A stretch of 32,000 nucleotides of DNA from Candidatus Thorarchaeota archaeon (GCA_048882505.1 JBHLRO010000026.1:627-32626), one strand, 5' to 3'; positions 5,257 to 21,089 are shown, counted from the stretch's first letter. Numbers and translations: made by a program. Notes: generated by a model from the sequence alone, not told the origin.

Positions 5257-8200
5257 ATGAAGAAAAATCAATGTATTTCATTGTTCGCTCTCATGATTGT
5301 AGTGATTTTTGCAATTTCTACCCCGATTTTTCTCAATATGTATTCTACAGACCGCCTAGATCCAATTATCCCGTTTTTCCTTAGAAGATACGTGTCACCG
5401 TTACGAAAAGACCCTCCTCAAATACGCATCCCTGATGTTCAAACAGGAATCATCAGTTCTGGGGCTACTACTGGCCCTAATGCTCCTCGTCAACCTCGTC
5501 TTGAGATCGTGAATCAAAAACCAGTCTTTTTTCCAGGTGACAGCATTCGAGTCAGGAATCGCTTTAGTACAAATGAAGATCCCACATATGCTGTTCTCAA
5601 CTTGAATGTCTCTATTTATCTTCATAAACAGGGGTATTCCAGCCTAACAGATCCCAATCATTGGTTCAGGAATGAAACCACTAACTTTACCGCGCCTCTA
5701 CCGACAGTTCCTATTTCTAATGATCCATCCCAAGGGTGGATGGATGTCACTTTTCAGATTCCTAGTATTTCAGAACTTACAAACTATGGTATCGCATCAG
5801 GGGACAATGTAACGATTTATCAGTACTGTCAGCCTAACAATACAAAATTTTTGGAGGGACTTAGCCCCATCACGTTTGCAGACAACTTTACATTAAGTGC
5901 ATTCGCTTTGGTCGGAGCTAAAGGTACAGGTTTTGTAAATAATGCTACTAGCGATAGTACCTTTCGTCAAGGGGAAAATGCAACGGCTATTATTCGAGTT
6001 TTTGCAGGGTCGGACAATATTCCCAATGTATCTATCACTGCAACTCTTTATGATTCTTCCGACACACCTATTGCCAACAACACGAGTGGGATCACGTATT
6101 ATCTCACTAATTCTTCTGGAACTTCGCAAACATATACCGACGGGAATGGAGAGCTAAAACTTACTGTAAATACTTCCTACCCAACTGTACCTCAGGATAG
6201 TTATTATTTCAATATAACGGCAGATCTCTTTGGGACGGGGTATTTTTCACGATTTTATGATCCTGGTACTCCCAGTGTTAATATTGAATTTAATTCTGCC
6301 GATTTTAACTTCACGGTACAAAACGAAATGGACACCGTAGACCTCCAGCTGATTAGCGCCGTACCTCAACCCCTCGATCCCCCTAACCAAAATATCACAA
6401 TTGTAACATTCCGAGTTCGGGCCCTATATGTCTATGGTATTCCAGGCACCTATTATTATCCTGCAAACATGCCTGTCAACGTAACATTAAATTCCTACCC
6501 TGCAGGGGTTACCCTATCTATTGCAAAGGGTTTTACAGATAATGGATCGGCTGATTGGGCGCTTACCAATGGTTCGGGATATGTGGCGTTCAATATTACA
6601 GCTTCGTTTCCAACTCTATATTTGGATGATATTATCAAGAATATTACGGGGAGAGTTAATTTGCAGAACGATATTGCTCCTCAATATCCCTATCATACCG
6701 CTCTATCCCCACAACCGCATCGATTCATGAGAAATGCCACCAATGGAGTCAATGCTTCATGGACGGAGGCGATTTCAATTGATCCTGACTTTTGGGTAGG
6801 GAATATATACCTAGCATCTATTGATACTACAATTATCCGCCCTGGGGACTCTGCAAAACTGACGTTTGAAGTCAACTCGACCCAAGCACCAAGTGTTGAT
6901 TTTGCAGGTGTTCCTGTCAATGTTACTTTGAATGTACCCATTGCAGGGGTTTCATTAAGCTCCAGCAACTCCTTTGCGTATGGGGGGTATCGATTCACGA
7001 ATAATACGGGACATTATGAACTTCAGATCGCTACTACTTACCTAACCACGCCTGAGGTCGTTCAATCCATTGTCCTGGACATAATTGTGGATTTTGAAAA
7101 TGATTCAGAAGTCCGCTGGATTGGAACAGTAAATGGAGGAACTGCAACCTTAACTGAGTTTAACAACACATGGCGTACCGCACAATCATCAGCAGTGACC
7201 ATTCATCCTCAGTTCACGAATTTTTCAGTCAGTCTTGATACAACCAACGAAACGGGTGACACAACCATCCGTTCAGGTGATGGACTCACCCTCACATTTA
7301 AGGTTCAAGAAGAAGGGGGAGGTTCAGTTTTAGCTGACGTACCTGTCAATGTTTCTTTGGATAGTGCCTATCCAGGTGTATCTCTTACCAACATAGTAGG
7401 ATTACCTCATCCTAATTCTGGATATTATAATACCACAGGCGCGGGGACAATTACCGTAGAATTATCTACCACTTACCCGACAACACAGAAGAATCTTGAC
7501 ATCATCCTCAAAGTTTCCGCTGATTTCGAGAATGATTCCACCTCGAATTCGGTATGGTTTGTTGGTCAAAAACCCACAGGAGTAAACTTCAAGTCAAATT
7601 TCTCGTTTTCGGATCTAACCACCACGGTTCAGGTGAGGCCGCAATATTTCACTGGGGAGATCTTTGTTCCAGGGGGAACCAACCCTAATGCCACCCTTGT
7701 GCAGCAGGAAGAAACAGTTAGGATTGAATTTCGCCTACGTCTGGATTATTTGGGGACAAATTATGCTTCAAGTATTACGGGAGTAAATGTCTCGATCCTG
7801 ATTAACAATTCAAAACCATCGGATTGGAATATGCGTGTGTTAAATGTTACTTTGCTCGAGTCGCAATATCAAAATTCTCTTGCAAGTAGTGTGATTTTCT
7901 ATATCCAAACCAATGTTACTGGAATCACACCCGAAGCAGACTATAATATAACCGCTACGGCGGATTTTCTGGCCGCAAAGGGCCTCACCTATAATGTTAC
8001 TCAGTCAACCGTCCCTACAGGAAAACTTTTTGGGAGGTGGGTGAACGGTTCATTAAATAATGACAATTCATCCGTCACCCAATCGTTCAGGGTAGAAAAT
8101 ATCGATCGAATTACCGTTCATGTTCAGAGCCTTAACGATCCTTCTCATCCTGATGAAGGATTTAATGCGTCCTCTGGCTTCTATGAGGTCTATCGGGACA

Positions 8201-10362
8201 CAACGTCCATCACACTCAATGGAACGTACGAAGATGCGACTGGACAAGGACGCTCATCAACGCTTATTCTTGCCTATAATTACACGGGTGGATCAAACCC
8301 GTACGATCTTACATTGGTAATCTCCAATGCTCAAGGATTCTTTTCCACCACGATTGTCCTCAATAACACAGTCCCATTAGCAGACCTCACGATTTACGGA
8401 CGTGATACTGTTACACGGGTTCCCCAAGAGATTCGAATTGGACTGAGTTCCATTCGAGTAATGACAAACGTCACATTTAGTGGTCATTCTCGCAGTGGCA
8501 CGTTTAATGGGACAGCAGTATATGTTGGGGAAACAGTTAGCGTAACAGGTACCCTTCGTGATGAACAAGGAGCCGCCATCACTTCACCAGAACTTTCAAA
8601 TCGTCTACGCCTTATCGGTTGGAATGCTACCAATCAGGTTGAAATAGGTACTCCCGTTATAGGCAGCCCCGCTGTAGGGGCCTATAGCATGACCTACCAG
8701 GTGCCACTGAATTTTCTGGGAGACACCTTGTATATTCGTCTCAACTTGACAATGAGCGCGGCCCTTCTCCATTATCGAGCGAATTATTTCGAATTTCCTG
8801 TCCCAATCTATAGAAATTTCCAAGTTTCCGGCCTACAGATGTTCTTCCCATCAACTGGCGGTACTATGCCTGTTACAAATGACAGTGTGTACCTCATTAC
8901 AGGCATCCAGAACCGTACATTCTTTATTTCAGGAACCTTACAGGATACCGCCAGTCGGGCCCTTATAAATAAGGAAATCAACGATAGATTGGGAGCTGCG
9001 AGTCAGAGGCGAGCAGTGAGTTCTATCGGGTTCTTTAACATGCAGTACAACTTTGGAGGCTGGAATAACGCTACTTTTGGATGGACTCTCTATCACATTA
9101 GCGATGCGGGCACCAACCTCACCACTCATTACAATCTCACACTCCAATGGGAAATTTATGACACCGCGAGCCCATCTATCACCGTAACGAGTCCAACGGG
9201 ATTCGACAATACATCTACCATACCAAATGTTCCCAATACACGCATCAATACAACCATCTTCGATCCGGATCCTTCGACAGGGCCTGGTTTTGTTTCCCTT
9301 GGCCTAGATGTGGCTAGTCTCACAATCGAGATTAACACCACTATACCGATTACAGCCCCCATGGTTTCAATGGGAGGAGATATCTATGTTTACGACTGGG
9401 ATACTTCGGCAGTTGCGAATGTAGTTTATAATGTTACTATTGTAGCCTCCGATAACGCAGGGAATCAACGGCGGCTCATCACTTTGGTTGTAGTAGATCT
9501 AATCCAACCAACTGCATCAATGACTGTCCCCGTGAGTGGAGGATATGCAACCGTTAACTCACAGGGAAACGTTCCAGTTACCGGAACAATAACGGATAAT
9601 CCTTCAGTTGGGGGACGACAGAGCGGAATTAATGAAACCACTGTTACTCTGCGAATCCAAGCTGGCACGACTACCGTGACCCTAAATAATACAGAAATTG
9701 GGTTCATTCCAGCTTCTGGCAGTTACTCATATGATTGGGTAATCTTTTTCCCCAGTAATCAATCACGGAACCTTCTGTTCACTACCCCAGATGACTGGAC
9801 AATAATTCTTGATTTCGACGATCTTGCAGGAAATACTGGTTCTACCCAACAGTCCGTAATCCTAGATAATACAGACCCTGCAGTCTCGATTGAACTACCC
9901 CCACCGGATATCATCATAAATGAAACAGTGGAAATTGGTATTACCCTATTTGATGGGGAGACTGGTTTGGATATAACCACACTCCAGGTTAATCTTATCA
10001 ACACATTCACCTCACAGGTTACCCTTACGATTGTTGACCCTGAACTCGTTATCACAAACCTAGGGAATGGAAGGTACAATCTCACTTTTGATATTAGCTC
10101 TGTAGCAAACGATGTTTATACATTTAATGTCAGTATCCTTGACATGACAGGAAATTTGGCATCTGCAACTCATCAAAGCAGAATTGATATCCCCACACCT
10201 ACCACCCCCACCAGTACCACAACCCCTGTCCCACCTGGTGGCCCGCTTCTAGGCCCAGTGGATCTTATTCAGTTCATACTCTTCGATCTGGTTGCATTGG
10301 GAGCTGGGGTTGGCCTAGCCGTAGTCTACGAGCGATTAAAGGTTGTAAGACGGAGGGAATGA
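5257..10362 (+). CDS. Large membrane-anchored cell-surface glycoprotein with tandem Ig-like beta domains (S-layer/adhesin-like)
   Basis: 1701 aa. Hydrophobic N-terminal signal/anchor, Thr/Asn/Val-rich beta-strand composition, very many N-x-S/T sequons, internal PVNV(T/S)L repeats and D-x2-P repeats, a PT-rich linker, and a C-terminal TM helix followed by KVVRRRE. Confidence 0.85.
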   Translation: MKKNQCISLFALMIVVIFAISTPIFLNMYSTDRLDPIIPFFLRRYVSPLRKDPPQIRIPDVQTGIISSGATTGPNAPRQPRLEIVNQKPVFFPGDSIRVRNRFSTNEDPTYAVLNLNVSIYLHKQGYSSLTDPNHWFRNETTNFTAPLPTVPISNDPSQGWMDVTFQIPSISELTNYGIASGDNVTIYQYCQPNNTKFLEGLSPITFADNFTLSAFALVGAKGTGFVNNATSDSTFRQGENATAIIRVFAGSDNIPNVSITATLYDSSDTPIANNTSGITYYLTNSSGTSQTYTDGNGELKLTVNTSYPTVPQDSYYFNITADLFGTGYFSRFYDPGTPSVNIEFNSADFNFTVQNEMDTVDLQLISAVPQPLDPPNQNITIVTFRVRALYVYGIPGTYYYPANMPVNVTLNSYPAGVTLSIAKGFTDNGSADWALTNGSGYVAFNITASFPTLYLDDIIKNITGRVNLQNDIAPQYPYHTALSPQPHRFMRNATNGVNASWTEAISIDPDFWVGNIYLASIDTTIIRPGDSAKLTFEVNSTQAPSVDFAGVPVNVTLNVPIAGVSLSSSNSFAYGGYRFTNNTGHYELQIATTYLTTPEVVQSIVLDIIVDFENDSEVRWIGTVNGGTATLTEFNNTWRTAQSSAVTIHPQFTNFSVSLDTTNETGDTTIRSGDGLTLTFKVQEEGGGSVLADVPVNVSLDSAYPGVSLTNIVGLPHPNSGYYNTTGAGTITVELSTTYPTTQKNLDIILKVSADFENDSTSNSVWFVGQKPTGVNFKSNFSFSDLTTTVQVRPQYFTGEIFVPGGTNPNATLVQQEETVRIEFRLRLDYLGTNYASSITGVNVSILINNSKPSDWNMRVLNVTLLESQYQNSLASSVIFYIQTNVTGITPEADYNITATADFLAAKGLTYNVTQSTVPTGKLFGRWVNGSLNNDNSSVTQSFRVENIDRITVHVQSLNDPSHPDEGFNASSGFYEVYRDTTSITLNGTYEDATGQGRSSTLILAYNYTGGSNPYDLTLVISNAQGFFSTTIVLNNTVPLADLTIYGRDTVTRVPQEIRIGLSSIRVMTNVTFSGHSRSGTFNGTAVYVGETVSVTGTLRDEQGAAITSPELSNRLRLIGWNATNQVEIGTPVIGSPAVGAYSMTYQVPLNFLGDTLYIRLNLTMSAALLHYRANYFEFPVPIYRNFQVSGLQMFFPSTGGTMPVTNDSVYLITGIQNRTFFISGTLQDTASRALINKEINDRLGAASQRRAVSSIGFFNMQYNFGGWNNATFGWTLYHISDAGTNLTTHYNLTLQWEIYDTASPSITVTSPTGFDNTSTIPNVPNTRINTTIFDPDPSTGPGFVSLGLDVASLTIEINTTIPITAPMVSMGGDIYVYDWDTSAVANVVYNVTIVASDNAGNQRRLITLVVVDLIQPTASMTVPVSGGYATVNSQGNVPVTGTITDNPSVGGRQSGINETTVTLRIQAGTTTVTLNNTEIGFIPASGSYSYDWVIFFPSNQSRNLLFTTPDDWTIILDFDDLAGNTGSTQQSVILDNTDPAVSIELPPPDIIINETVEIGITLFDGETGLDITTLQVNLINTFTSQVTLTIVDPELVITNLGNGRYNLTFDISSVANDVYTFNVSILDMTGNLASATHQSRIDIPTPTTPTSTTTPVPPGGPLLGPVDLIQFILFDLVALGAGVGLAVVYERLKVVRRRE

Positions 10363-11112: not shown

Positions 11113-12876
11113 ATGGTAGAAATCAACCGTAGTACCAGCGCCTTGGTTGTTTTGGCCATTTTTATCAGCTATCCTTTTTTGGCAGCCGTCTTCTTGGGCT
11201 TTTTTTTCGCTGGGAACACTACGAACTTTAGTATATACAATACGGGTGCATTTGGTGCCAGTGAATTTATGCAACGATTTGCTGACCATTCAAATGAGGG
11301 TCAAATTTCCACAATAGTCGGGAGTTCAAATATTCTGAATAGATTAAATGCTTCCGAGATGAACGACAGCCAAGGCAGCCTCATCATTCTTGGACCCGCT
11401 ATTCATTATGATTTTTCAGAAGCACTTGCAATCCTCATTTACGCCATTAATGGGGGCAGAGTGTTGATTGCCGATGATTTCGGAACAGCTAATGACATTC
11501 TAGGTGTCCTTTCCATATTCCTTGGGTTTATGTCAGAAATCGATCTAGGTTCATCCCTGGGATTTGGTGGTTCTGAAGGTCTCAACTTATTGGGTATGAA
11601 TTCCTCCACTGGCGGAGGGGGATTAAGTGGGAGTGGAACGAACAGCACAACAGGCGAAACTGTCAATGCAAGTTTTAATTTCCCCATTGCAGGGGTTGCG
11701 ATCAATGGAAGTTTACTCGCTGACCAAGGTAGTTATAATGACACACCACTTACCCCCGTTTTTAGTTTCCCCTCTTCTGCTACCCAAACTGCTACTCAAT
11801 ACTTACTTCCCGCGCCTTGGGTGACGAGTTTTACAGCTGGGCTTAGTGGTAATGGCATTATTGGGAATTTTGCTAGTATTATTACCATGAAAGTTCGCTA
11901 TCCAGATATTAATTCCTCCGGATATCCATCGAATCCCGATTATCTAACCAAATGGGTACCCATGGGCGAATTTCCTGCTTCAGTCCAGCAGGCGTTTGAT
12001 AATCAACAATTAGACTCATTAGGTATCGAATTACCTGATATTTCATTTAGCCTGCAAATCGCAGTTTTATATAGCAGTTCTGAGGCCTGGTTGGAATCAG
12101 ATCTCGCTGCAGCGAGGCAAAATGTTAATAATATCAACCCAAATCTGAACGAATGGGGTAATCCCAATATTGGTTTCCCTGTTTTTGTCTATTTTCCTTT
12201 TCCACTAGGTGGGCAAATTATATTATGTTCTGATCCCTCTATTTTTATCAATCAGTATGTTGATACAGCAAATTATCCTGGAGCAAGTCTTTACGACAAT
12301 AGTGACTTCACAGACAATGTAGTGGACTTGATAATGCAGGATAGGCCGGGTCAAACCATCATTTTCGATGAAGGCCACCTGGCTAACGCGCCTTTTGCTC
12401 CTATTCTTCCCCTCAGTCTTTACCTGAAGTTCTTAGATATGATTACCATGTTTCCCCTGTTCGCATGGGCTCTCCCCTTTGTCGCGATCTTTCTATCTCG
12501 GCGTTTCATGCCCAAACGCGAACAAGCTAAACCTCTACTCCTAACACGGGTCGAACGGTACTATGGTCGTAGTTTTTTTGCGGTCAAAATGCGCTGGTTC
12601 CTTGAGTACCGTCAATTCTCGAGAGGTTTGGAACTTATATTCCGCCGCTTAAGACGGAACCTGATCCGTCGATATAATCCCGAAGAAGAACTCACTCCCG
12701 ATGTCATAGCGATTTATTTGGAAAACGAATTCGGTCCCGAGCGCTTTGACTATAAATCTACACGGCAAACTCTAATCACTATTGAAGAAGTGATTGCTAC
12801 TCGGGCCCCCATTACCGAAGAAGAATTTCTGAGTCATTATCTCTTTCTGAAAGGAATTGGCGCAGAAATTAGCTAG
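11113..12876 (+). CDS. DUF4350-like membrane-anchored protein
   Basis: N-terminal TM, then FSIYNTGAFGASEF, GGRVLIADDFGTAN, IILCSDPSIFINQ and IIFDEGH, then a second TM and a cytoplasmic tail. Confidence 0.8.
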   Translation: MVEINRSTSALVVLAIFISYPFLAAVFLGFFFAGNTTNFSIYNTGAFGASEFMQRFADHSNEGQISTIVGSSNILNRLNASEMNDSQGSLIILGPAIHYDFSEALAILIYAINGGRVLIADDFGTANDILGVLSIFLGFMSEIDLGSSLGFGGSEGLNLLGMNSSTGGGGLSGSGTNSTTGETVNASFNFPIAGVAINGSLLADQGSYNDTPLTPVFSFPSSATQTATQYLLPAPWVTSFTAGLSGNGIIGNFASIITMKVRYPDINSSGYPSNPDYLTKWVPMGEFPASVQQAFDNQQLDSLGIELPDISFSLQIAVLYSSSEAWLESDLAAARQNVNNINPNLNEWGNPNIGFPVFVYFPFPLGGQIILCSDPSIFINQYVDTANYPGASLYDNSDFTDNVVDLIMQDRPGQTIIFDEGHLANAPFAPILPLSLYLKFLDMITMFPLFAWALPFVAIFLSRRFMPKREQAKPLLLTRVERYYGRSFFAVKMRWFLEYRQFSRGLELIFRRLRRNLIRRYNPEEELTPDVIAIYLENEFGPERFDYKSTRQTLITIEEVIATRAPITEEEFLSHYLFLKGIGAEIS

Positions 12877-12914
12877 TAATAATGGCTCCAATTTATACTG
12901 CGAATTTAATCCTA

Positions 12915-13706
12915 TTAGTTTCTCTCCCAGATCAATTCTAAGGAGGGTTTTTCATATTTCTGGGTCGTCGCGTATTGTTTACCAAAGGAGGTTAGAGATA
13001 TTTCTTTTAACTTGCGCGTCCGTGTGGTTCGGATTAAATTTAGCGCTGCCATTCTCGATATTTCGCGCGACAAATTCATCATATGTTTCCCTGAGGTTTC
13101 CTGACCAAGTTTTGTATTTAGTCCCTTTAAAGAACCGATTTGTCCCGTTGGGAGCCGTGATAGCTCATAAATGACTCTCTCATCAATTTCTTTGAACACC
13201 ACATCCGTAATTGGGATGTCAAAGCTATATTGTTTGGCAAATTCAATGTCCTGCTCAAGTTTTTCCAGGACGGTTTGGGTGGAAGTTTGTGCTTGAAACC
13301 TCTCTCCTGGGAAGCTGAAATGAACAGAAGGGATCTTATATTTCAGGGCAAATAGGTACAGACCGACATTAGCGGGAATGGGGCCCGCCGAAATATCTAC
13401 TACAACCTCGTAATAGTGAAAGCGGGTCCTCAAATCAATAGTTTCTAGGGACTTAATCACAGAGATTGGATTTATTATATCTACTCTAACCTCCCAAATT
13501 CGATCCAATTGCTGAAAAAATCGACGATGACTATCAATGTAGTGAATCACGTCGTTAATTGCAATATTGATATTCTCGCGTACTTTAGGATTTATATCAT
13601 AAAAAGATCGCAATAATATGCAGTCTTTGGGTAAATATGAGAGAATTGAAGCTATTATTTTACTTTTATGCAGGCCCTGACATAATAGTAACAATTTATT
13701 GGTCAT
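12915..13706 (-). CDS. CARF-like Rossmann domain plus winged-HTH transcriptional regulator (Csa3/DUF6293-like)
   Basis: N-terminal LLLLCQGLHKSKI..LPKDCILL; strand-loop VVVDISAGP (compare CARF N/D-x-S/T-G-G); C-terminal wHTH LSREISRMAALNLIRTTRTRKLKEISLTSFG. Confidence 0.7.
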   Translation of the reverse strand: MTNKLLLLCQGLHKSKIIASILSYLPKDCILLRSFYDINPKVRENINIAINDVIHYIDSHRRFFQQLDRIWEVRVDIINPISVIKSLETIDLRTRFHYYEVVVDISAGPIPANVGLYLFALKYKIPSVHFSFPGERFQAQTSTQTVLEKLEQDIEFAKQYSFDIPITDVVFKEIDERVIYELSRLPTGQIGSLKGLNTKLGQETSGKHMMNLSREISRMAALNLIRTTRTRKLKEISLTSFGKQYATTQKYEKPSLELIWERN

Positions 13707-13761
13707 CCTTAACCCTACCAGGTAGCAATTTTATCAAGAAGTTCCTACAAACTCCAGCATA

Positions 13762-13792
13762 TATAACTTTTTGAACACACAATAAAGTTATA
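13762..13792. promoter_or_regulatory. Back-to-back BRE/TATA elements forming a 9-bp inverted repeat between the divergent regulator and ATPase genes
   Basis: TATAACTTT (13762-13770), 13-nt spacer, AAAGTTATA (13784-13792). Each arm reads as AAAGTTATA, a BRE-TATA-like element, on its own strand. Confidence 0.6.
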
Positions 13793-14006
13793 AAAGAAAT
13801 AAATAACTTAATATTGTGATTAAATTTGGAATCAAGAAACCAAGAGGAATCGTTACGAATCTTCTTAGTTTACCAATTTGCCTGGTGGGGGGAAATTCAT
13901 AGGGTTGTAACATTAAATTTGAAACAGGAGTAGGAACTTTCATGGATAGGATGATGAAGACAGTAAAAGTTTTGAAAATTATTGAAATATTAAGGAGGGA
14001 GGGTAT

Positions 14007-15323
14007 ATGATAATCGAGGGAAGAGAAAACCCGAATTCAGATCCAGGTAATATCTTATCCGCTTCCTTTCGGGCGCAAACATTTGTCCAAAATGGGCGTT
14101 ATTACGACCAAAAGGGGCAATACTCACAAGCGGTGAAGTATTATGGATTGGCCCAAACCAAATTCGCTAATCTATTGAAACAATTTCCAAAGGTACCTTT
14201 AACCCCCCAATGGGAGTTAGAAATTCGCCTGGCCCACCAACGTATCAACCAACTGAAATCTAAGGCGACACCCCAAAAACTCCGTTCAAAGGACGACCAA
14301 CAATATGCCGAGATGAAAGCTCGCGTTCTCTCCTGTCGAGTCAAACCCAACCCGAACCTGACACGACAGGATGTGATCGGCCTCCATCATATCTGGCGGG
14401 AGCTCGAAGACGTCGTTATTGATCCATTGATTTACCCCGAACTCCTCCACACCAATCCGGACTTCCCCCGGACAATTCTCCTCAACGGCCCCCCCGGCTG
14501 TGGGAAGAGCTTCCTGATGAATGTGTTGGCCGCGGTGGCCCCGATTACGCTCTTTCTGGTCACGCCAGGCCTGATCTACCAGAAATGGATGGGAGAAAGC
14601 CAAAAAATGGTGCAGGTGTTGTATGAAACAGCCTGGGAGTACGCCCCCTCTGTCATCTTCATCGATGAGTTTGACAAACTGTTTAATTCGTCAGTTACCC
14701 GTCTTAACGGCGGAACAGAGGCATCCCAGACAGGGATGCAGATCGAAAGCGAGCTCCAACAGTACTTGAGTGGGATGCGGACACCTCTCGTCAACCCTAC
14801 AGTTACAATAGCCGCCACCAACGAACCGTGGCAAATGGATGCCGCCATGCGACGACGCTTTGCTCGCATCCTCTATATCGGCCCTCCCGGCTCGTTTACG
14901 ATCGAACAGCTCATTGTCCGAAACTTTCGCCATACCCAACATGATCTAACCGAAAACCACGTCCAGTGGCTCGCGAATGAATTAGAGCGGCATTCACCCG
15001 CAGAGATTGCAAAAATTTGTTCGATCGCACATATGACGGCCCACAAACAAGCGCGAGACCAGGGATTTACTGAGGTGGTGAGTCTCAAGGATATGTTCGA
15101 TGCCATCCCCACTGTGGCGCCTGCTCTGGAGCTCTGGGCTGAACATAGTACAAGGTATAAATCGAAACTCACTAAATATCGGGAGTGGAACGACCAGTAT
15201 AGCATTCCTAAGATAGAACACCTGGGTTGGGAGTGGGAGCTGAAACCACGGGAGAAAACACGCAACCCAATTCAACTGAAAGTCTTTGACGAATCCCAAC
15301 CCGTAAAATGGAAGAAGGATTAA
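14007..15323 (+). CDS. MIT-domain AAA+ ATPase of the Vps4/CdvC/katanin (meiotic) clade
   Basis: MIT-like N-terminus (AQTFVQNGRYYDQKGQYSQAVKYYGLA...RINQLK), Walker A GPPGCGKS, pore loop KWMGES, Walker B VIFIDEFD, SRH AATNEPWQMDAAMRRRF; strong SD GGAGGGAGG. Confidence 0.85.
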   Translation: MIIEGRENPNSDPGNILSASFRAQTFVQNGRYYDQKGQYSQAVKYYGLAQTKFANLLKQFPKVPLTPQWELEIRLAHQRINQLKSKATPQKLRSKDDQQYAEMKARVLSCRVKPNPNLTRQDVIGLHHIWRELEDVVIDPLIYPELLHTNPDFPRTILLNGPPGCGKSFLMNVLAAVAPITLFLVTPGLIYQKWMGESQKMVQVLYETAWEYAPSVIFIDEFDKLFNSSVTRLNGGTEASQTGMQIESELQQYLSGMRTPLVNPTVTIAATNEPWQMDAAMRRRFARILYIGPPGSFTIEQLIVRNFRHTQHDLTENHVQWLANELERHSPAEIAKICSIAHMTAHKQARDQGFTEVVSLKDMFDAIPTVAPALELWAEHSTRYKSKLTKYREWNDQYSIPKIEHLGWEWELKPREKTRNPIQLKVFDESQPVKWKKD

Positions 15324-18300
15324 TGGAGCAGGAGGAGGCGCCTCAGGCCCAAGAAGAAGAGGAGCAGATTACCGAGGCTGTGGAGGAACAAGAAGAAAGC
15401 TGTGATCTAGACGGTCAAGACATCGAGGATCTCATTCAACAGATGGAAGCAGAACCCGAGGATCCCGACCCAGAAACAGAGGAAGACGTAGATCAAGAGG
15501 ATACTCTAGATGATGTAGGCGACCATTTTCAGCAGATCGTTGAGGATGATATTGCTAGTGACACGCTGTCCAAGGATGAGATTCTCGAGGATCTCCCCTT
15601 TGAATTTCCGCTCGCGTTTGATTATGAACCTGAGAATGAGACCATTGAATTCCTGGAAAGTGAAACATCCTCGATTCAAGAGGCCGAGCTGAATCGGGCC
15701 GAGGCCGTAGCGGAAGAGGAACATCTCGAAAAACTCCACCAATGGTTTGACCAACTTGTCCACCACGGCACTTCGGACTTAGAAGACCACGAAGATGTAT
15801 ATGAGCGAGATGAGGTGGGAGCGAGTACGTTGGAAGAAATCCAGGGTGTCATTGGGGAGGGGGAGATCCAGATCCAAGACTTAGCTGAACGGCTCCCTGA
15901 GGATATTTTCAGTTTCGAAATGGAGGAAGAACAGATAGATGCTCTCTTTCTGGAGGAACAGGACGTTAGTAGGTGGATTGAGGAAGAAACAACCCATGTA
16001 GCGGACCATCTTACCTTGGAAACACAAACTGAAGAACACCACCCTGAGCTTTCTGAGGAGGAGATAAAGTCAAAGCTGGAAGAGGTCGCTGAAGAGGTGA
16101 AAGATCAGTACGTCCAGGACCTCGATAGCTGGTGTGCGGATCTCCTGCACGAGACACCCGAAGAGAGTCGGGAGATTGAGGTTCAAGAACAGGAATGGAT
16201 AGAAACAACCCCTGATGAGGGAGAACTGGAAGTACTTACCCAAGAAGAGTTAGCTGTAAATGGGAGTGCGAACGAAGTAGAAATGGATAGTTTTACCCTC
16301 GTAGAAGAGGCAGAAGAGGATACACAATCAACAGTTACGACCCCTGAGGGGGGGACGAAGAATAATGAAATGGGAACGGTAGTTAAGGACATTGAGGAAG
16401 AAGAGTTAAGGGGGAATGTGACAGAGAAGGGAGTGGAGAATGCATCAATCACGGAAAATACACAATCCGAACAAGGACAGAATGTGAATATTGGGGAGGG
16501 GATACAAGCAGCTGAGAGTCATCCCATCCAGGAACTCGACAGCTGGTTGGATGAGGTTACCCATCTACTTTCTGACGGGAAAGCCTTGGACTTTCTAGAG
16601 CAGGATAGTTTCGTGAACATAGATGATCTGGTTCCACTTAGGGAAAATACAACTGATAAGGAGCTAGAAACTCTAGAATTAAAGAATCAACTACCTATGT
16701 CTATTCCTGAGGATATTCTTCCATTAGATGACCTACAAGTGGACTCAGAATTCCTCACTTCCACGCTTTTTCACACTGGATCTACAGGCCTGGATTCAGA
16801 GTATAACGAAGAGATCGCTCCATTCGCCCCATTATCCGAGATAGCTACAGAAATCCAGCAAAGGGAACAGTACCTTGATGTAATAATGGGGCCCCACTTC
16901 CTCGAAGAGGTACACACCCAGATCGAAGTACAAACACTTGAACAACTCGAGACCAAGGCCGACCAGGTTCTAAAAACCCAGGAAGAAGGCCTCCAACTCC
17001 AACGTCAGGTGCCGACTCTTCCTGAACCCCCTCCCTACGATTTTCAGGCCGAATTGGAGGCCTGGGAAGAAGAGGAAGCCCTTCAAGCCAAGTACACCGG
17101 CCCCCCTATCTATCGGTTCGCTAGCCATACTCAGGAAGGACGTTCAAAAAACTTAAAGGCCTCGTCCGACACTTCCCAAATACAGAAAACCCAGGAAAAA
17201 CAATCTAACAGAGAACCGAGGTCTAATTCTGGCAGGTCACTAGAGGAAGCTAAATACATTAAATTGACAGCATCTCGTGATTTGGCAACTCAATCCCTTT
17301 TTAATAAAGAGAAATCAATAGACAGCAAATATATGGTAGGATTGCCAAAAAGCGGAACTCAAGTGGAAAGAGGAAATGACCAGATGGGGACTTGTCAAAC
17401 TTTTGAAAGGGATTTTAAGTATATCAAAGAATATTTCGGATCTCTCAAATCTCCTTTAGAAGGCTTTAAGTATTGGATTAGGTTTGAACAAGATCTTAAA
17501 ATAGGTTCGATGAAGCAACCGTATTATTACAGTCTGTTAATCAAGCCCGATAAGAACATTCCCGATGTGGTTCATGAAAAACGGATCTATATCCAAAACC
17601 GGTCATCCTTTTTTAAAAACGGCTGGGATGCAAGAAATTTTTACCAGCATTCGACCCGAAATGAAGCAGTCTCTTCCTTCCAGAAGATTGTTATGGAAAG
17701 AATTGACAAATGGCTAAATATATCTCCGTGGACAGCTGTAAAAATCCGTCATTCGATATACGAACAATTTTACGAAAAAAAGCCCGCATTTTCGGAAATA
17801 AGGAAGAAAATTACAACAACAAAGAGTAAAAAGAAACCTTCTCTTTTTATCGCTAAGTTTAATTTAGAAAATTCCCAACCCTTATGGATAAAAGCATTTA
17901 ACGAATATATGAATAAGTTAAAAAATAAAGAGTCATTTCTGCAAGATTTAAAAATACGTTATCCTGACGTGTATCAATATTATACCTCAGAAGAGAACAC
18001 CCGCAATTTATCCCAAATTTTGGCCAATAAATCCCGATTCCTTGATTCTGAGGAAAAAAAACTGGCTAAACAAATCGTTTTAGATGTGAATACGAGAAAG
18101 GAGGATACAGCAAAGGCCAAGCGGTTTATTGAAGAAATAAACCATGCAATAGTAGAGGGTAACCTAAATGTCTCAGACCAAAAGATACTTGAAAATTTAA
18201 GTATGATAAGGAAACTAGAATCGTTTAAAGATATTGGATTTGTGTACAACGGAAATAACTGGGTTACAGTCTATAACTGGGAAGGGATGGATGATATCAA

Positions 18301-19810
18301 GTACTTCTTCAACGAAAGAATACAAGGAATTTGGGGATTGAAAATTTGGATTGACGTTTATATGGGAATCCCGATTTTTTCGAATAATAACAAACCTCTT
18401 TATTACACTGTGACGTTAAATGATCAAAGTGATATTCTTTTTCCGTTACGAGGAAAAACATTTCTATTAAGAAATGATCCAAGAGTTCTCAAAGAATATG
18501 GCGTTCGTAACTCATATTGGAGTGATAAGAACGGAACGGTCTTAAATTGGGAATATAGATTTTGTGAAGTTCTAGATTACGAAGTTCTAGGGCTAAACAA
18601 GGGAGATAAATCTGACCGAATGAACTTTACACGAATTAGAAATAGCATATTTAACCAGTTTAAACTAAAATACGGAGAAAATTACGGATACAAGACAAAA
18701 AATGCTCAAAGTCTCGCCCAGACAAAAATCCTTATTCTTAAATATGATAAAAATAACCTGCATTATTCTTGGATAAGGGCATTTTCTACTTCTAAATGGG
18801 ATATAACAACCTCTACATATAAGACTGTTGCTAATTGTCTTAGTAAGTTTGGATACGCAGATAGTCTAAAAGGGGAACCAATCGACTATATAATTACGAC
18901 AAGCGAGATTAAATACGATAATTTGATTGCTAAGATACGTAATAAAGAGATTGACGATCTTGGGGAAATGATTCATGCTCTAGAATATAATAAAAACTCA
19001 TCGACTAAATTTCACGATTTGTATTTTGGAACCAAAGATGTACAATTTCCTCTTATGGCCGATACCAGGGACTTTCAGAAATTTAAAGATGAATCAAATC
19101 CACAGGGCGAGTCGGCAATAATCAGTTCATTATTCCAACATAGGGAGTTGATAAGAGAGATAAACAAAAGATTTCCGTCAACGATCCCTTCATATGGCAT
19201 CTATGAATTTAAAGGCCAGTCTCGAGGTGAGAGTTCAACAACACCAGTCTATGAGGATATTTCAGCCAAAAAAAATAAAGCAGGGGATCCATTATCGTCA
19301 AATGTGAACATTCTAATTAAGAATTCAAATGAACATGTAAAAATCCGATTGTTAGAAGACTATTTAAAAGCCTTGCACGGAGTTGGAGACAAAAATATCT
19401 ATGTAAAAACAGTAATAACACATCCTGGGCATTTCAAGGATTTAAGCGAAATTCCAAGAGAAGTTAAGAAAGCAGTTGATAATTACCAGGAGGGAAGAAG
19501 ACTTGGATGGATTGATATAGGGATTGTACGTGGTAATAAGACCTATAATAACCTTGGATCTATATATGGAGCTGTGAAATGGGCCCGTACTGAAACAACT
19601 AATCATAAGGTGGCCGACACCAAATCGGGCATCGTACATGATTCAATAAGAAAACTTATGGAACATCGTATTGTGAAAAAGGAAAAAGAATTAGTTGAAA
19701 ATATGAACGACCTTTTTGAAAGACATAAATTTACTGGAAACTCCATTCGAGAAACCTCCTATGAAAAATTCAAGGATTTCATCATAGATTTCTTTGAAAC
19801 GTTTTTTTAA
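15323..19810 (+). CDS. ~1495-aa hypothetical protein: acidic disordered N-half, basic AT-rich C-half with a duplicated ~165-aa domain
   Basis: Uninterrupted ORF. The ATG at 15323 overlaps the ATPase stop (TAATG), suggesting translational coupling; the ORF track start at 15308 is an alternative. No family recognised. Confidence 0.8.
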   Translation: MEQEEAPQAQEEEEQITEAVEEQEESCDLDGQDIEDLIQQMEAEPEDPDPETEEDVDQEDTLDDVGDHFQQIVEDDIASDTLSKDEILEDLPFEFPLAFDYEPENETIEFLESETSSIQEAELNRAEAVAEEEHLEKLHQWFDQLVHHGTSDLEDHEDVYERDEVGASTLEEIQGVIGEGEIQIQDLAERLPEDIFSFEMEEEQIDALFLEEQDVSRWIEEETTHVADHLTLETQTEEHHPELSEEEIKSKLEEVAEEVKDQYVQDLDSWCADLLHETPEESREIEVQEQEWIETTPDEGELEVLTQEELAVNGSANEVEMDSFTLVEEAEEDTQSTVTTPEGGTKNNEMGTVVKDIEEEELRGNVTEKGVENASITENTQSEQGQNVNIGEGIQAAESHPIQELDSWLDEVTHLLSDGKALDFLEQDSFVNIDDLVPLRENTTDKELETLELKNQLPMSIPEDILPLDDLQVDSEFLTSTLFHTGSTGLDSEYNEEIAPFAPLSEIATEIQQREQYLDVIMGPHFLEEVHTQIEVQTLEQLETKADQVLKTQEEGLQLQRQVPTLPEPPPYDFQAELEAWEEEEALQAKYTGPPIYRFASHTQEGRSKNLKASSDTSQIQKTQEKQSNREPRSNSGRSLEEAKYIKLTASRDLATQSLFNKEKSIDSKYMVGLPKSGTQVERGNDQMGTCQTFERDFKYIKEYFGSLKSPLEGFKYWIRFEQDLKIGSMKQPYYYSLLIKPDKNIPDVVHEKRIYIQNRSSFFKNGWDARNFYQHSTRNEAVSSFQKIVMERIDKWLNISPWTAVKIRHSIYEQFYEKKPAFSEIRKKITTTKSKKKPSLFIAKFNLENSQPLWIKAFNEYMNKLKNKESFLQDLKIRYPDVYQYYTSEENTRNLSQILANKSRFLDSEEKKLAKQIVLDVNTRKEDTAKAKRFIEEINHAIVEGNLNVSDQKILENLSMIRKLESFKDIGFVYNGNNWVTVYNWEGMDDIKYFFNERIQGIWGLKIWIDVYMGIPIFSNNNKPLYYTVTLNDQSDILFPLRGKTFLLRNDPRVLKEYGVRNSYWSDKNGTVLNWEYRFCEVLDYEVLGLNKGDKSDRMNFTRIRNSIFNQFKLKYGENYGYKTKNAQSLAQTKILILKYDKNNLHYSWIRAFSTSKWDITTSTYKTVANCLSKFGYADSLKGEPIDYIITTSEIKYDNLIAKIRNKEIDDLGEMIHALEYNKNSSTKFHDLYFGTKDVQFPLMADTRDFQKFKDESNPQGESAIISSLFQHRELIREINKRFPSTIPSYGIYEFKGQSRGESSTTPVYEDISAKKNKAGDPLSSNVNILIKNSNEHVKIRLLEDYLKALHGVGDKNIYVKTVITHPGHFKDLSEIPREVKKAVDNYQEGRRLGWIDIGIVRGNKTYNNLGSIYGAVKWARTETTNHKVADTKSGIVHDSIRKLMEHRIVKKEKELVENMNDLFERHKFTGNSIRETSYEKFKDFIIDFFETFF

Positions 19811-20011
19811 CCTGATCGAGTAGATTTCTGTTGGTTCAATACACTTGATCTGAACAATAATCTTTATTTCAGGTTATAAATGTTTGAAACGCAATACATG
19901 CTATTTTATATAGGAACAACCCAGTGAATTTTAGATGAAGAACTTAATAATCCAACATTATGAATTAGATAAAAAAATAATCTGTCATGACTTAAACAGG
20001 TGTAGGATACT

Positions 20012-21089
20012 ATGAGTAAAACAGAAGGTAAAGATTTCACCGCAGACGATATTTCCTTCGATATGTTGTCCGAAGCTGACGTCGCAAGGGCCTATCAACA
20101 AATAATGGCTGAAATTCGGAAGGGATATATTGGACGCACCGAAATATTTGAGATGTTATGGATCGCCATGTTGACCGGTAAACACGTCTATTTAGAGGGT
20201 GTACCGGGTATTGGAAAACTTGGTTGTGGTTACAACTAAGTCTGAAAAAACATATATGGCGAAAATCTTCTCTCAATGTTTAGGAACACAATTTCAACGA
20301 ATTCAATTCACCCCCGACATGCTGCCCTCCGATATTGTTGGAACGAACATATTTAATCCCAAAACAGGAACGTTTCGTCTTAAAAAGGGTCCAATCTTTG
20401 CTAATGTCATATTGGCGGATGAAATTAATAGAGCTCCTCCTAAAACTCAATCAGCAATGTTGGAGGCCATGGCTGAAAGCCAAGTCTCTATAGAAGGCGA
20501 AACACATAAGCTGGAACAACCTTTTGTCGTTATGGCGACTGCAAATCCCGTAGAGCAAGAAGGAACGTATCCCCTGCCAGAAGCTCAGTTGGATAGGTTC
20601 ATGCTCAAAGTTATTATCCATCATTCATCGCCTGACGATGAACTTCGAATTATCAATTTCAAAAATGAGCCTGTCCCGGCCAAAATCAACCAAGTGGTGT
20701 CTCCTCAGACTATAGTTGCTATGATGGATGTTGTTAAACGTATTTATGTCTGTCCGGAAATTCTCGAAATGATTAGGGACATTACAGTTGCTACGCGCAC
20801 AGATCCAAGACTAATACTCGGTTGTTCTCCCCGTGGAAGCGAAAGTCTACTGCTAGCTGGTAAAGCAAGGGCAGCCATACATGGCCGGGATTATGTGATA
20901 CCAGACGATATTCTTCTAATGATACCTCATATAGTACATCATCGATTAATCATGAAGCCGGAAGCAGAACTCGAAGGTATCTCTCAGATAAGGGTGTCCG
21001 AGGATATACGCGATAGTCTCGTTGTGCCTGTCCATCTCGTAACCGAAGAAATGATCGTAGAAGAGTACATTGAAGAATATGTCGAATAG
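20012..21089 (+). CDS. moxR: MoxR-family AAA+ ATPase, predicted join(20012..20216,20248..21089), 348 aa
   Basis: Exon 1 ends HVYLEGVPGIGK; exon 2 continues TYMAKIF...RIQFTPDMLPSDIVG...LADEINRAPPKTQSAMLEAM...ATANPVEQEGTYPLPEAQLDRF. Removing 31 nt restores Walker A GVPGIGKT. Confidence 0.9.
20217..20247 (+). other. Candidate 31-nt bulge-helix-bulge intron in moxR mRNA
   Basis: 10-bp inner stem ACUUGGUUGU/ACAACUAAGU with a GGUU loop; 3-nt bulge AA^A (20215-17); 4-bp central helix UUGG/CUGA; second AA^A (20246-48). Contains an in-frame TAA at 20237-39. The outer helix is weak, so this is a relaxed motif. Confidence 0.75.

What the first reader, a model, noticed from the sequence alone, without database searches (positions are those of the whole stretch)
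15323..17130. ~600-aa acidic disordered region studded with Trp-centred helical motifs and a MIM2-like proline motif
Seen in sequence: extreme Glu/Asp richness punctuated by EKLHQWFDQL, DVSRWIEEE, QDLDSWCADL, QELDSWLDEV and AELEAWEEEE. Two of these are DNA-level duplicates (18/20 nt identical at 16113-16132 and 16527-16546). VPTLPEPPP (about 17009-17035) resembles proline-rich MIT-interacting motif 2 (e.g. LPEVP or LPELPHPP types). Inference: these are multivalent docking sites for the adjacent ATPase or for a coat/adaptor; alternatively the region is an acidic intramolecular inhibitor of the basic C-half that the ATPase must strip off.
Basis: partly seen in the sequence, partly recalled or inferred. 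Interest (0 to 1): 0.6.

Follow-up and report, generated by a model that had tools for sequence, protein, structure and literature searches.

The report
Acidic tail with Vps4-paralog docking motif
The acidic first 600 residues of this giant Asgard-archaeal protein are a fast-evolving disordered tail ending in one strictly conserved proline-rich motif, which probably docks the extra Vps4-like ATPase encoded just upstream; most of the tryptophan motifs are not conserved.

Summary
Residues 1-600 of the 1500-aa ORF have net charge -158 and are mostly disordered. All five Trp motifs and VPTLPEPPP lie at the stated coordinates.

The motifs differ in conservation:
- Four Trp motifs (W146, W223, W275, W413) are predicted short helices but are not conserved in any orthologue.
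- The proline motif and the fifth Trp motif form one junction module, P(T/S)(L/I)PE(P/A)P(P/S)YDFxAELE. It is near-invariant in about 19 proteins of a single Hodarchaeales genus.

In six genomes (seven loci) this protein is encoded directly downstream of a fast-evolving Vps4 paralog. That paralog has an MIT domain and intact ATPase motifs. Here the two genes overlap as TAATG. The regions after the junction are swapped cassettes.

Best reading: the junction is the docking site for the paralog's MIT domain, and the polyanionic tail is the segment the ATPase pulls on. Binding and threading are inferred, not shown.

The motif fits only the first half of the MIM2 consensus. The whole 7.15-kb block is an insertion that the closest relative lacks.

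The scan found this same system before in other genomes (e1-5542807, e1-5670909, e1-5696044). I found no paper describing the partner protein.

The parts
14007..15323 (+). Vps4-paralog AAA ATPase, 438 aa, partner gene
   Evidence: PF00004 at 6e-25. Walker A/B, pore loop KWMGES, Arg fingers and the Vps4_C-type helix are all aligned with canonical Vps4. Its nearest paralog in its own genome is the canonical Vps4 (158 bits, against about 100 for Cdc48-like proteins).
14052..14261 (+). MIT three-helix domain of the ATPase (about aa 16-85)
   Evidence: A profile of six orthologues hits the CdvC/Vps4 MIT domain of 4lcb at 2.5e-5 over the full domain, 2v6y at 9e-4, and calpain-7 and yeast Vps4 MIT domains. 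Pfam MIT is below cut-off (19 bits). Net charge is +7, against +3 for the canonical MIT.
15323..19810 (+). Giant bipartite protein (1495 aa from this ATG; an alternative ATG lies at 15308)
   Evidence: ORF. TAATG stop/start overlap with the ATPase gene. No Pfam or PADLOC family found.
15308..16831 (+). Hypervariable polyanionic disordered region (aa 1-508)
   Evidence: Charge and composition. pLDDT is mostly below 50. No sequence conservation, but length (350-520 aa) and net charge (-100 to -163) are conserved in full-length orthologues.
15728..15757 (+). Trp motif 1, EKLHQWFDQL; lineage-specific amphipathic helix
   Evidence: Lies in predicted helix 110-156, pLDDT 67-81. Median z 1.08, so not conserved.
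15962..15988 (+). Trp motif 2, DVSRWIEEE; lineage-specific
   Evidence: Lies in predicted helix 207-241. Median z 0.58.
16115..16144 (+). Trp motif 3, QDLDSWCADL; short internal duplicate of motif 4
   Evidence: Lies in predicted helix 250-280, pLDDT 75-82. Shares 18/20 nt with 16527-16546. Median z 0.46.
16529..16558 (+). Trp motif 4, QELDSWLDEV; lineage-specific
   Evidence: Lies in predicted helix 405-422, pLDDT about 57. Median z 1.04.
16832..17005 (+). Conserved pre-junction helical hairpin (aa 509-566)
   Evidence: pLDDT 77-87. BLAST of aa 509-579 against the G002, G007 and G018 orthologues gives 38-39% identity at E about 1e-10. Aligned in A4.
17009..17044 (+). Junction proline motif VPTLPEPPPYDF (aa 568-579), with a MIM2-like core
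   Evidence: P572, P575, D578 and F579 are invariant in the nine-sequence alignments. It is unique in the genome. Median z is 13.3. The MIM2_Core regex is met in 21 of 23 sequences.
17042..17095 (+). Acidic amphipathic helix DFQAELEAWEEEEALQAK (aa 579-596); contains Trp motif 5
   Evidence: Predicted helix with pLDDT 82. L583 and E587 are invariant. W586 is shared with some orthologues (G018a, G021, P0024, P0026, P0028) and replaced by L, A, F, Y, P or Q in the others.
17102..17119 (+). PPIYRF, a weakly conserved second motif (P-L/I-Y-P/R-Y/F in a subgroup)
   Evidence: Median z is 2.5, and 36% of orthologues have z above 3. PLYPYS occurs in G004, P0031, P0032 and P0033.
17165..19807 (+). Basic, AT-rich, exchangeable C-terminal cassette
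   Evidence: It is shared with paralogs that have no ATPase neighbour, and not with the other ATPase-linked proteins. GC3 is 0.33, against 0.47-0.57 upstream. The model has pLDDT 82.5, with only weak fold hits whose top ranks include PD-(D/E)xK nucleases.
12876..20024 (.). 7.15-kb accessory block (CARF-like ORF, ATPase, giant protein) inserted between the DUF4350 gene and moxR
   Evidence: The block is absent from the same site in G016, whose flanks are 87-91% identical in DNA. The DUF4350-to-DUF58 gap is about 1.1-1.3 kb wherever both genes are matched on one contig in the other genomes, and 8.3 kb here.

Best explanation
The acidic half is the regulatory or handle region of a two-gene module. 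The module consists of a fast-evolving Vps4 paralog (MIT + AAA) and a giant protein.

The giant protein has three parts:
- a 350-520-aa polyanionic disordered region that keeps its length and charge but not its sequence;
- a conserved junction module: a helical hairpin, the proline strand P-T-L-P-E-P-P-P-Y-D-F, and an acidic helix;
- an exchangeable basic C-terminal cassette.

Proposed mechanism:
1. The ATPase's unusually basic MIT domain docks on the junction motif, as Vps4/CdvC MIT docks on MIM2 of ESCRT-III.
2. The hexamer's pore then engages the adjacent disordered polyanion and pulls on it.
3. This remodels the giant protein, most plausibly by stripping an acidic cis-inhibitor or nucleic-acid mimic off the basic cassette.

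Four of the five Trp-centred helices are lineage-specific short amphipathic elements of the disordered region. They are not conserved docking sites.

Shown: the gene pairing, translational coupling, the MIT domain, intact ATPase motifs, motif conservation, disorder, cassette exchange and the accessory insertion.

Inferred: MIT-motif binding, threading of the acidic region, and relief of inhibition.
For: Gene pairing:
- The ATPase paralog occurs in G000, G002, G004, G007, G016 and G018 (twice). Each time a junction-bearing acidic protein is encoded immediately downstream on the same strand.
- Genomes without the paralog lack intact junction proteins.
- The other neighbouring genes are not conserved.
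- The two genes overlap as TAATG.

ATPase:
- MIT domain confirmed by a profile search against solved structures.
- ATPase motifs are intact.
- Its closest paralog in the genome is the canonical Vps4.
- The paralog MIT domains carry net +4 to +9, against +3 for the canonical one.

Junction motif:
- It is the only conserved segment of the N half: median z 13.3, with all 11 orthologues above z 3. Invariant residues are P572, P575, D578, F579, L583 and E587.
- 17 protein clusters in a 5.8-billion-protein database carry it. Every cluster that a source names is a hypothetical protein of a Hodarchaeota, Hodarchaeales or Heimdallarchaeota archaeon.
- It matches the PhiPxPhiP core of MIM2 as defined in PMC8970359 and resembles CdvB LPELP (PMC5840170).

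Other:
- Disorder and charge. Charge and length are conserved across orthologues.
- ATPase-linked proteins share only the junction module; their C halves come from a pool of cassettes.
- PMC11188069 reports diverged Hodarchaeota Vps4 paralogs with no ESCRT neighbours.
Against: - No binding or activity data exist, and no multimer prediction tool was available.
- The second half of the MIM2 consensus (xxP-Phi-P) is never present.
- Two variants (P0028, LPEATPYDF; G018:C266, LIDPPPYDF) break the PhiPxPhiP core yet keep PYDF. The truly invariant part is therefore P-x-Y-D-F, not the MIM2 core.
- The motif lies mid-protein, not in a C-terminal tail. It shows no profile similarity to the genus's own ESCRT-III (hhalign probability 0.4%).
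- One junction-bearing copy (G018:C158) has no ATPase within the 1.2 kb upstream.
- Paralogs without an ATPase neighbour also have acidic N-termini, so acidity itself does not depend on the ATPase.
- The nuclease-like nature of the C half rests on weak fold hits (E 0.4 or higher) and on motifs read by eye.
Confidence: 0.55

Rival explanations
1. The acidic region works on its own. It would act as a cis nucleic-acid mimic, an autoinhibitor or a solubilising entropic bristle for the very basic cassette. On this view the ATPase is a co-regulated neighbour that acts on something else, and the junction motif binds a different partner.
For: Paralogs that have no ATPase neighbour and no junction motif also carry acidic, repeat-rich N-terminal extensions. 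Charge is conserved while sequence is not.
Against: This does not explain why the junction module and the ATPase paralog co-occur at seven loci and are translationally coupled. It also does not explain why the only conserved segment looks like an MIT ligand.
Confidence: 0.2
2. The Trp-centred helices are multivalent docking sites for the MIT domain or for an adaptor.
For: They are predicted helices within a disordered chain. They share a non-random Phi-x-x-W-Phi pattern (p about 0.002-0.005). Two of them are a short DNA-level duplicate.
Against: They are not conserved in any of 11 orthologues (median z 1.1 or less). Orthologous acidic regions have 0-4 Trp in unrelated contexts. They contain no basic residues, so the MIM1 consensus (D/E)xxLxxRLxxL(K/R) is not met. 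Their apparent similarity to the FQxELDEII repeats of unlinked paralogs is within the chance range.
Confidence: 0.07
3. The invariant PPxY-DF element is a late-domain-like ligand for another machine, such as a WW-like, UEV or ubiquitin/ESCRT adaptor. It would route the protein into vesicles or to turnover, and the ATPase would act downstream.
For: PPPY fits the eukaryotic PPxY pattern (from my own knowledge). The host is an Asgard archaeon with canonical ESCRT-III and Vps4 genes. The invariant residues centre on P-x-Y-D-F rather than on the MIM2 core.
Against: No WW domain was detected in the genome, although the control genomes for that search were uninformative. The pairing with the ATPase paralog is the only conserved genomic link.
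Confidence: 0.08
4. The acidic half is drifting low-complexity filler in a decaying accessory gene and has no specific role.
For: Sequence turnover is extreme. Some copies look damaged: an in-frame TAA in G007, a truncated start in G002, and a remnant in G014 that begins at the motif.
Against: A 1500-codon open frame is present. Length and charge are maintained in more than ten diverged orthologues. The junction is invariant.
Confidence: 0.05

Closest known systems
[quoted passage not shown]
   Same: An MIT + single-AAA ATPase whose nearest relative is the canonical Vps4. The partner is encoded next to it. The partner has a proline-rich strand with a PhiPxPhiP core (LPEPP, compared with CdvB LPELP) set in an acidic, disordered context. 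Vps4 is known to thread the segment adjoining the MIM.
   Different: The partner is not an ESCRT-III protein: no Snf7 hit and hhalign probability 0.4%. The motif is internal, lacks the xxP-Phi-P half, and is extended by an invariant Y-D-F and an acidic helix. The partner is a 900-1500-aa protein with exchangeable cassettes. The module is an accessory insertion confined to one genus.
Spastin and katanin (MIT-AAA, meiotic clade) acting on the glutamate-rich C-terminal tails of tubulin
   Same: Relatives of Vps4 with an MIT domain that have been redirected to a non-ESCRT substrate. Their pores grip a disordered polyanionic tail (from my own knowledge).
   Different: No tubulin-like partner is present here. 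The acidic region is about 500 aa long rather than about 20. No specific relationship to the spastin or katanin clades was tested.
Polymorphic effector/toxin architecture (constant N-terminal module, variable C-terminal domain)
   Same: The ATPase-linked proteins share only the N-terminal junction module. Their C halves are swapped cassettes with a distinct codon signature. Genomic location is variable.
   Different: No downstream immunity gene and no secretion apparatus are evident. Toxicity or nuclease activity of the cassettes is not shown.
Acidic protein inhibitors and DNA mimics of nucleases (colicin immunity proteins, ICAD, Ocr-type mimics)
   Same: A strongly acidic polypeptide is associated with a basic module that may bind nucleic acid.
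   Different: Here the acidic part is fused in cis, is disordered and is not conserved in sequence. Inhibition is only inferred.

Membership tests
MIM2 (MIT-interacting motif 2) | Core Phi-P-x-Phi-P with a charged or polar x | tested here: met
   LPEPP in the window. 21 of 23 family sequences match the MIM2_Core regex of PMC8970359. The regex alone is expected 0.17 times per 1500 aa in this genome.
MIM2 (MIT-interacting motif 2) | Second half x-x-P-Phi-P, giving the four-proline consensus Phi-P-x-Phi-P-x-x-P-Phi-P | tested here: not met
   0 of 23 sequences match MIM2_total. The following residues are P-Y-D-F. The consensus is taken from PMC5840170.
MIM2 (MIT-interacting motif 2) | Lies in the C-terminal tail of an ESCRT-III (Snf7-fold) protein | tested here: not met
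   No Pfam family was found in the protein. hhalign of the junction against the genus's ESCRT-III gives probability 0.4%. The motif is at aa 568-579 of 1500.
MIM2 (MIT-interacting motif 2) | Binds the helix 1 / helix 3 groove of an MIT domain | not testable with these tools
   No multimer prediction or binding assay was available. Genetic linkage is the only support.
MIM1 (considered for the Trp helices) | (D/E)xxLxxRLxxL(K/R) amphipathic helix with basic residues | tested here: not met
   The Trp motifs contain no Arg or Lys at the required positions. By contrast, the genome's own ESCRT-III tails end in LDEMRKQIEEGLR and ELQKELEKIKK.
Vps4/CdvC family (the partner ATPase) | N-terminal MIT three-helix bundle | tested here: met
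   The profile hits 4lcb at 2.5e-5 and 2v6y at 9e-4 across the full domain. Pfam MIT reaches only 16-19 bits, below cut-off.
Vps4/CdvC family (the partner ATPase) | Single classic AAA cassette with a KW(M/L)GES pore loop, Arg fingers and a Vps4_C helix; closest to Vps4 among paralogs | tested here: met
   Alignment. Canonical Vps4 is the best in-genome paralog at 158 bits.
Vps4/CdvC family (the partner ATPase) | Genomic or functional association with ESCRT-III | tested here: not met
   No Snf7 gene lies in the window or in the six other loci. The genome's ESCRT-III pair sits beside the canonical Vps4 on contig C11.
Intrinsically disordered polyanionic region | Low hydropathy with high net charge, no confident fold, and composition conserved without sequence conservation | tested here: met
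   FoldIndex -0.27. pLDDT is below 50 for 401 of 700 residues and pTM is 0.22. Orthologues carry net -100 to -163 with no alignable sequence.
PD-(D/E)xK nuclease (C-terminal cassette, context only) | Alpha-beta-beta-beta-alpha-beta core with D...(D/E)xK catalytic residues | tested here: inconclusive
   The best Foldseek rows include Hjc, EcoRV, N.BspD6I, YaeQ and Can2, but with E of 0.4 or higher. VIA-align gave Z of 5.4 or less with no clear fold. D388 is near-invariant and D422 invariant in alignment A2.

The most novel reading that the evidence does not exclude
A Vps4-derived unfoldase in Hodarchaeales has been retargeted from ESCRT-III to a family of mobile, polymorphic, nuclease-like giant proteins. 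The retargeting uses a MIM2-like docking motif. The ATPase would arm the effector by pulling a 500-residue polyanionic cis-inhibitor off it. This would be a new kind of archaeal conflict or defence system. It would also be a prokaryotic precedent for the eukaryotic spread of MIT-AAA enzymes to non-ESCRT substrates.
Probability: 0.25. Interest if true: 0.8.

Novelty: new variant of a known kind. Interest (0 to 1): 0.6.

Why it matters
Published work on archaeal ESCRT systems (PMC11188069) noted diverged Vps4 paralogs in Hodarchaeota that have no ESCRT partner, and left them unexplained. This finding gives them a candidate substrate and a precise, mutable docking motif.

Hodarchaeales are among the closest known archaeal relatives of eukaryotes. 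In eukaryotes, MIT-AAA enzymes diversified towards non-ESCRT targets such as spastin and katanin. A natural case of a Vps4 relative coupled to a non-ESCRT-III protein would make that kind of retargeting directly testable.

It may also reveal a new class of accessory system with exchangeable effector cassettes.

Tried and rejected
1. Word-based homologue search with the C half and with aa 500-625 returned only the protein itself. Exhaustive HMMER, six-frame genome searches and a profile search were needed to find relatives.

The genomic context of database-only members P0019-P0033 could therefore not be checked.

3. The Trp motifs QDLDSW and QELDSW looked like the FQxELDEII repeats of unlinked paralogs (P0004, P0017, L012). 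Against a maximum-z null, the observed z of 4.5-5.0 is ordinary (null mean 4.3-4.4, 95th percentile 5.6-6.0). This link is rejected.

4. The idea that the junction derives from an ESCRT-III tail is rejected: hhalign probability is 0.4%.

5. PADLOC gave no defence-family hit for the giant proteins. The ATPase gave only generic AAA hits (IetA), and the 263-aa ORF gave a weak CARF hit.

6. Fold searches of the C-terminal model found no clear match. The protein atlas gave chance-level scores.

7. A 10-nt direct repeat (12878 and 20101) looked like a target-site duplication. It does not sit at the insertion boundary defined by the empty site in G016.

8. A WW-domain search of the genome was negative, but its controls were uninformative.
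Full report
**What is there**

The finding lies in the first 40% of a 1500-codon ORF, 15308-19810 on the + strand.
- Residues 1-600 contain 22-43% Asp+Glu and 1-5% Lys+Arg per 100 residues, with net charge -158.
- Residues 620-1500 are basic and aromatic-rich.
- The two 20-nt stretches are 18/20 identical. That is the best such pair in the region, but 1 of 60 codon shuffles also reached 18, so it is only marginally above chance.
- Five of six Trp residues share a Phi-x-x-W-Phi context, with shuffle p about 0.002-0.005. This test was chosen post hoc.

**Disorder**

- FoldIndex is -0.27 for the N half.
- An AlphaFold2 model of residues 1-700, built with the orthologue alignment, has mean pLDDT 51 and pTM 0.22. 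401 residues fall below pLDDT 50.
- Helical islands sit at the Trp motifs: 110-156, 207-241, 250-280 and 405-422.
- A confident helical hairpin spans 509-566 (pLDDT 77-87). The proline stretch 567-578 is non-helical. A further helix spans 579-596 (pLDDT 82).
The last ~90 residues, however, form a structured, conserved module.

**The neighbouring ATPase**

- The upstream gene (14007-15323) is a single-cassette AAA ATPase. Its stop overlaps an ATG of the giant ORF as TAATG.
- Its Pfam MIT score is below cut-off.
- A profile of six orthologous N-domains matches the MIT domains of CdvC/Vps4 (4lcb, 2.5e-5; 2v6y, 9e-4), calpain-7 and yeast Vps4 over the whole domain.
- Walker A/B, the KWMGES pore loop, the arginine fingers and the Vps4-type C-terminal helix are all present. 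There is also a family-specific C-terminal extension.
- In its own genome its closest paralog is the canonical Vps4 (158 bits, against about 100 for Cdc48-like proteins). That canonical Vps4 sits beside two Snf7-family genes on another contig.
- It is therefore a second, diverged Vps4. This matches the partnerless, fast-evolving Hodarchaeota paralogs noted in PMC11188069.

**Relatives and the key result**

- Homologues of the C half exist only in the same genus. They are modular and are mostly not next to an ATPase.
- Orthologues of the ATPase paralog (34-45% identity) were then traced. Each is followed directly by a large gene with a hyper-acidic N half. After that N half comes the same sequence: P(T/S)(L/I)PE(P/A)P(P/S)YDFxAELE.
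- This holds at seven loci in six genomes.
- P572, P575, D578, F579, L583 and E587 are invariant in the nine-sequence alignment.
- A profile search of 5.8 billion proteins found 17 clusters. Every cluster that a source names is a hypothetical protein of a Hodarchaeota, Hodarchaeales or Heimdallarchaeota archaeon.
- A scan of 301 genomes of the phylum found the module in 8 of 21 genomes of this genus and in none of 280 others searched.
- The motif occurs once in this genome.

**Which motifs are conserved**

I compared every 11-mer of the window's N region with 11 orthologues, without relying on an alignment and against composition-preserving shuffles.
- Residues 562-589 stand out, with median z up to 13.3 and all orthologues above z 3.
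- The Trp motifs at 146, 223, 275, 297 and 413 have median z of 1.1 or less.
- Orthologous acidic regions carry 0-4 Trp in unrelated contexts. Full-length orthologues keep a length of about 350-520 residues and a net charge of -100 to -163.
- The fifth motif, AELEAWEEEE, is the helix immediately after the proline strand. Its Trp is often replaced.

**Relation to MIM2**

- The published consensus is Phi-P-x-Phi-P-x-x-P-Phi-P, and the CdvB example is LLPELPHPP (PMC5840170). A published regex defines the core as PhiPxPhiP (PMC8970359).
- 21 of 23 family sequences fit the core. None fits the full motif.
- The two exceptions still keep P-x-Y-D-F.
- The motif is internal, not in an ESCRT-III tail, and the module shows no profile similarity to the genus's ESCRT-III.
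- It therefore works like a MIM2 at best. It is not a canonical member.
- The paralog MIT domains are more basic (+4 to +9) than the canonical one (+3). This suits an acidic ligand but proves nothing.

**Architecture and mobility**

- All-against-all BLAST shows that the ATPase-linked proteins share only the junction module. Their C halves come from a pool of cassettes also found in unlinked paralogs.
- Within this ORF, GC3 falls from 0.47-0.57 (ATPase, acidic part, junction) to 0.33 in the C half. Neighbouring genes are at 0.37-0.46.
- The block 12876-20024 is missing from the same site in G016, whose flanks are 87-91% identical in DNA. The DUF4350-to-DUF58 spacing is about 1.1-1.3 kb wherever both genes are matched on one contig in the other genomes, against 8.3 kb here.
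- G016 carries a different ATPase-giant protein pair elsewhere in its genome.
- The genus's ESCRT-III, by contrast, is 84-99% identical across genomes.
- The module is therefore accessory, mobile and fast-evolving.

**Mechanism**

- Most likely (about 0.55): the junction is the MIT docking site, and the adjoining polyanion is what the ATPase pore grips. This is analogous to Vps4 threading the segment next to a MIM, and to spastin and katanin gripping glutamate-rich tails (the latter from my own knowledge).
- The plausible consequence is removal of an acidic cis-inhibitor from the basic cassette. That last step is pure inference.
- The cassette's nuclease-like nature rests on weak fold hits.
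- Rivals are given separately.

**Earlier notes**

After reaching these conclusions I found that this scan had already reported the same system from other genomes. My results agree with those reports. No paper describing the partner protein was found.

Noticed in passing
window 12876-20024: The block holding the CARF-like ORF, the ATPase and the giant protein is a 7.15-kb insertion between the DUF4350 gene and moxR. The same site is empty in G016 (109 nt instead), and the DUF4350-to-DUF58 spacing is only about 1.2 kb in the other genus genomes where both genes lie on one contig.
   Followed up: yes
window 17110-17165 (boundary inside the ORF): There is a sharp codon-usage break within one ORF. 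GC3 is 0.47-0.57 upstream (ATPase, acidic part, junction) and 0.33 downstream. GAG/(GAA+GAG) drops from 0.50 to 0.24. This is consistent with cassette exchange by recombination.
   Followed up: partly
window 15186-15320 (C-terminus of the ATPase): The Vps4 paralogs share an extra C-terminal extension after the Vps4_C helix. Its consensus is P-P-I-E-Y-P-x-Q-P-W-E-E, and the canonical Vps4 lacks it. Its function is unknown.
   Followed up: no
window 12915-13706 (-): This 263-aa ORF, divergent from the ATPase gene, gives a weak CARF (Csx1/Csm6) hit in PADLOC (3.3e-5) and no Pfam hit. No such neighbour was seen at the other ATPase-linked loci whose neighbours were scanned.
   Followed up: partly
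L030 8999-9001 (G007); L029 9909-10232 (G002); L044 7382 (G014): Some orthologues look damaged. G007 has an in-frame TAA where G002 reads Gln. The G002 frame starts about 110 residues late. G014 keeps only a remnant that begins at the junction motif directly after a MutS-like gene, with no ATPase.
   Followed up: partly
L013 392-4732 (-), L014 1469-3868 (+), P0004, P0017: Unlinked paralogs carry tandemly repeated acidic N-terminal motifs. EFLxKMEExLLxKAEKGYxDQxII occurs four times in L013. FQxELDEIIxRL(D/E) occurs several times in P0004 and P0017. They have no ATPase neighbour and no junction motif.
   Followed up: partly
window 5257-10362 (+): This 1701-aa ORF has no Pfam or PADLOC hit. It lies upstream of the DUF4129 / DUF4350 / MoxR / DUF58 cluster.
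   Followed up: no
G000 contig C11 41041-43554: This is the canonical ESCRT locus: two Snf7-family genes followed by Vps4. The tails end in MIM1-like helices (LDEMRKQIEEGLR; GLPSPD followed by ELQKELEKIKK). This ESCRT-III is 84-99% identical across the genus, in contrast with the fast-evolving paralog module.
   Followed up: partly
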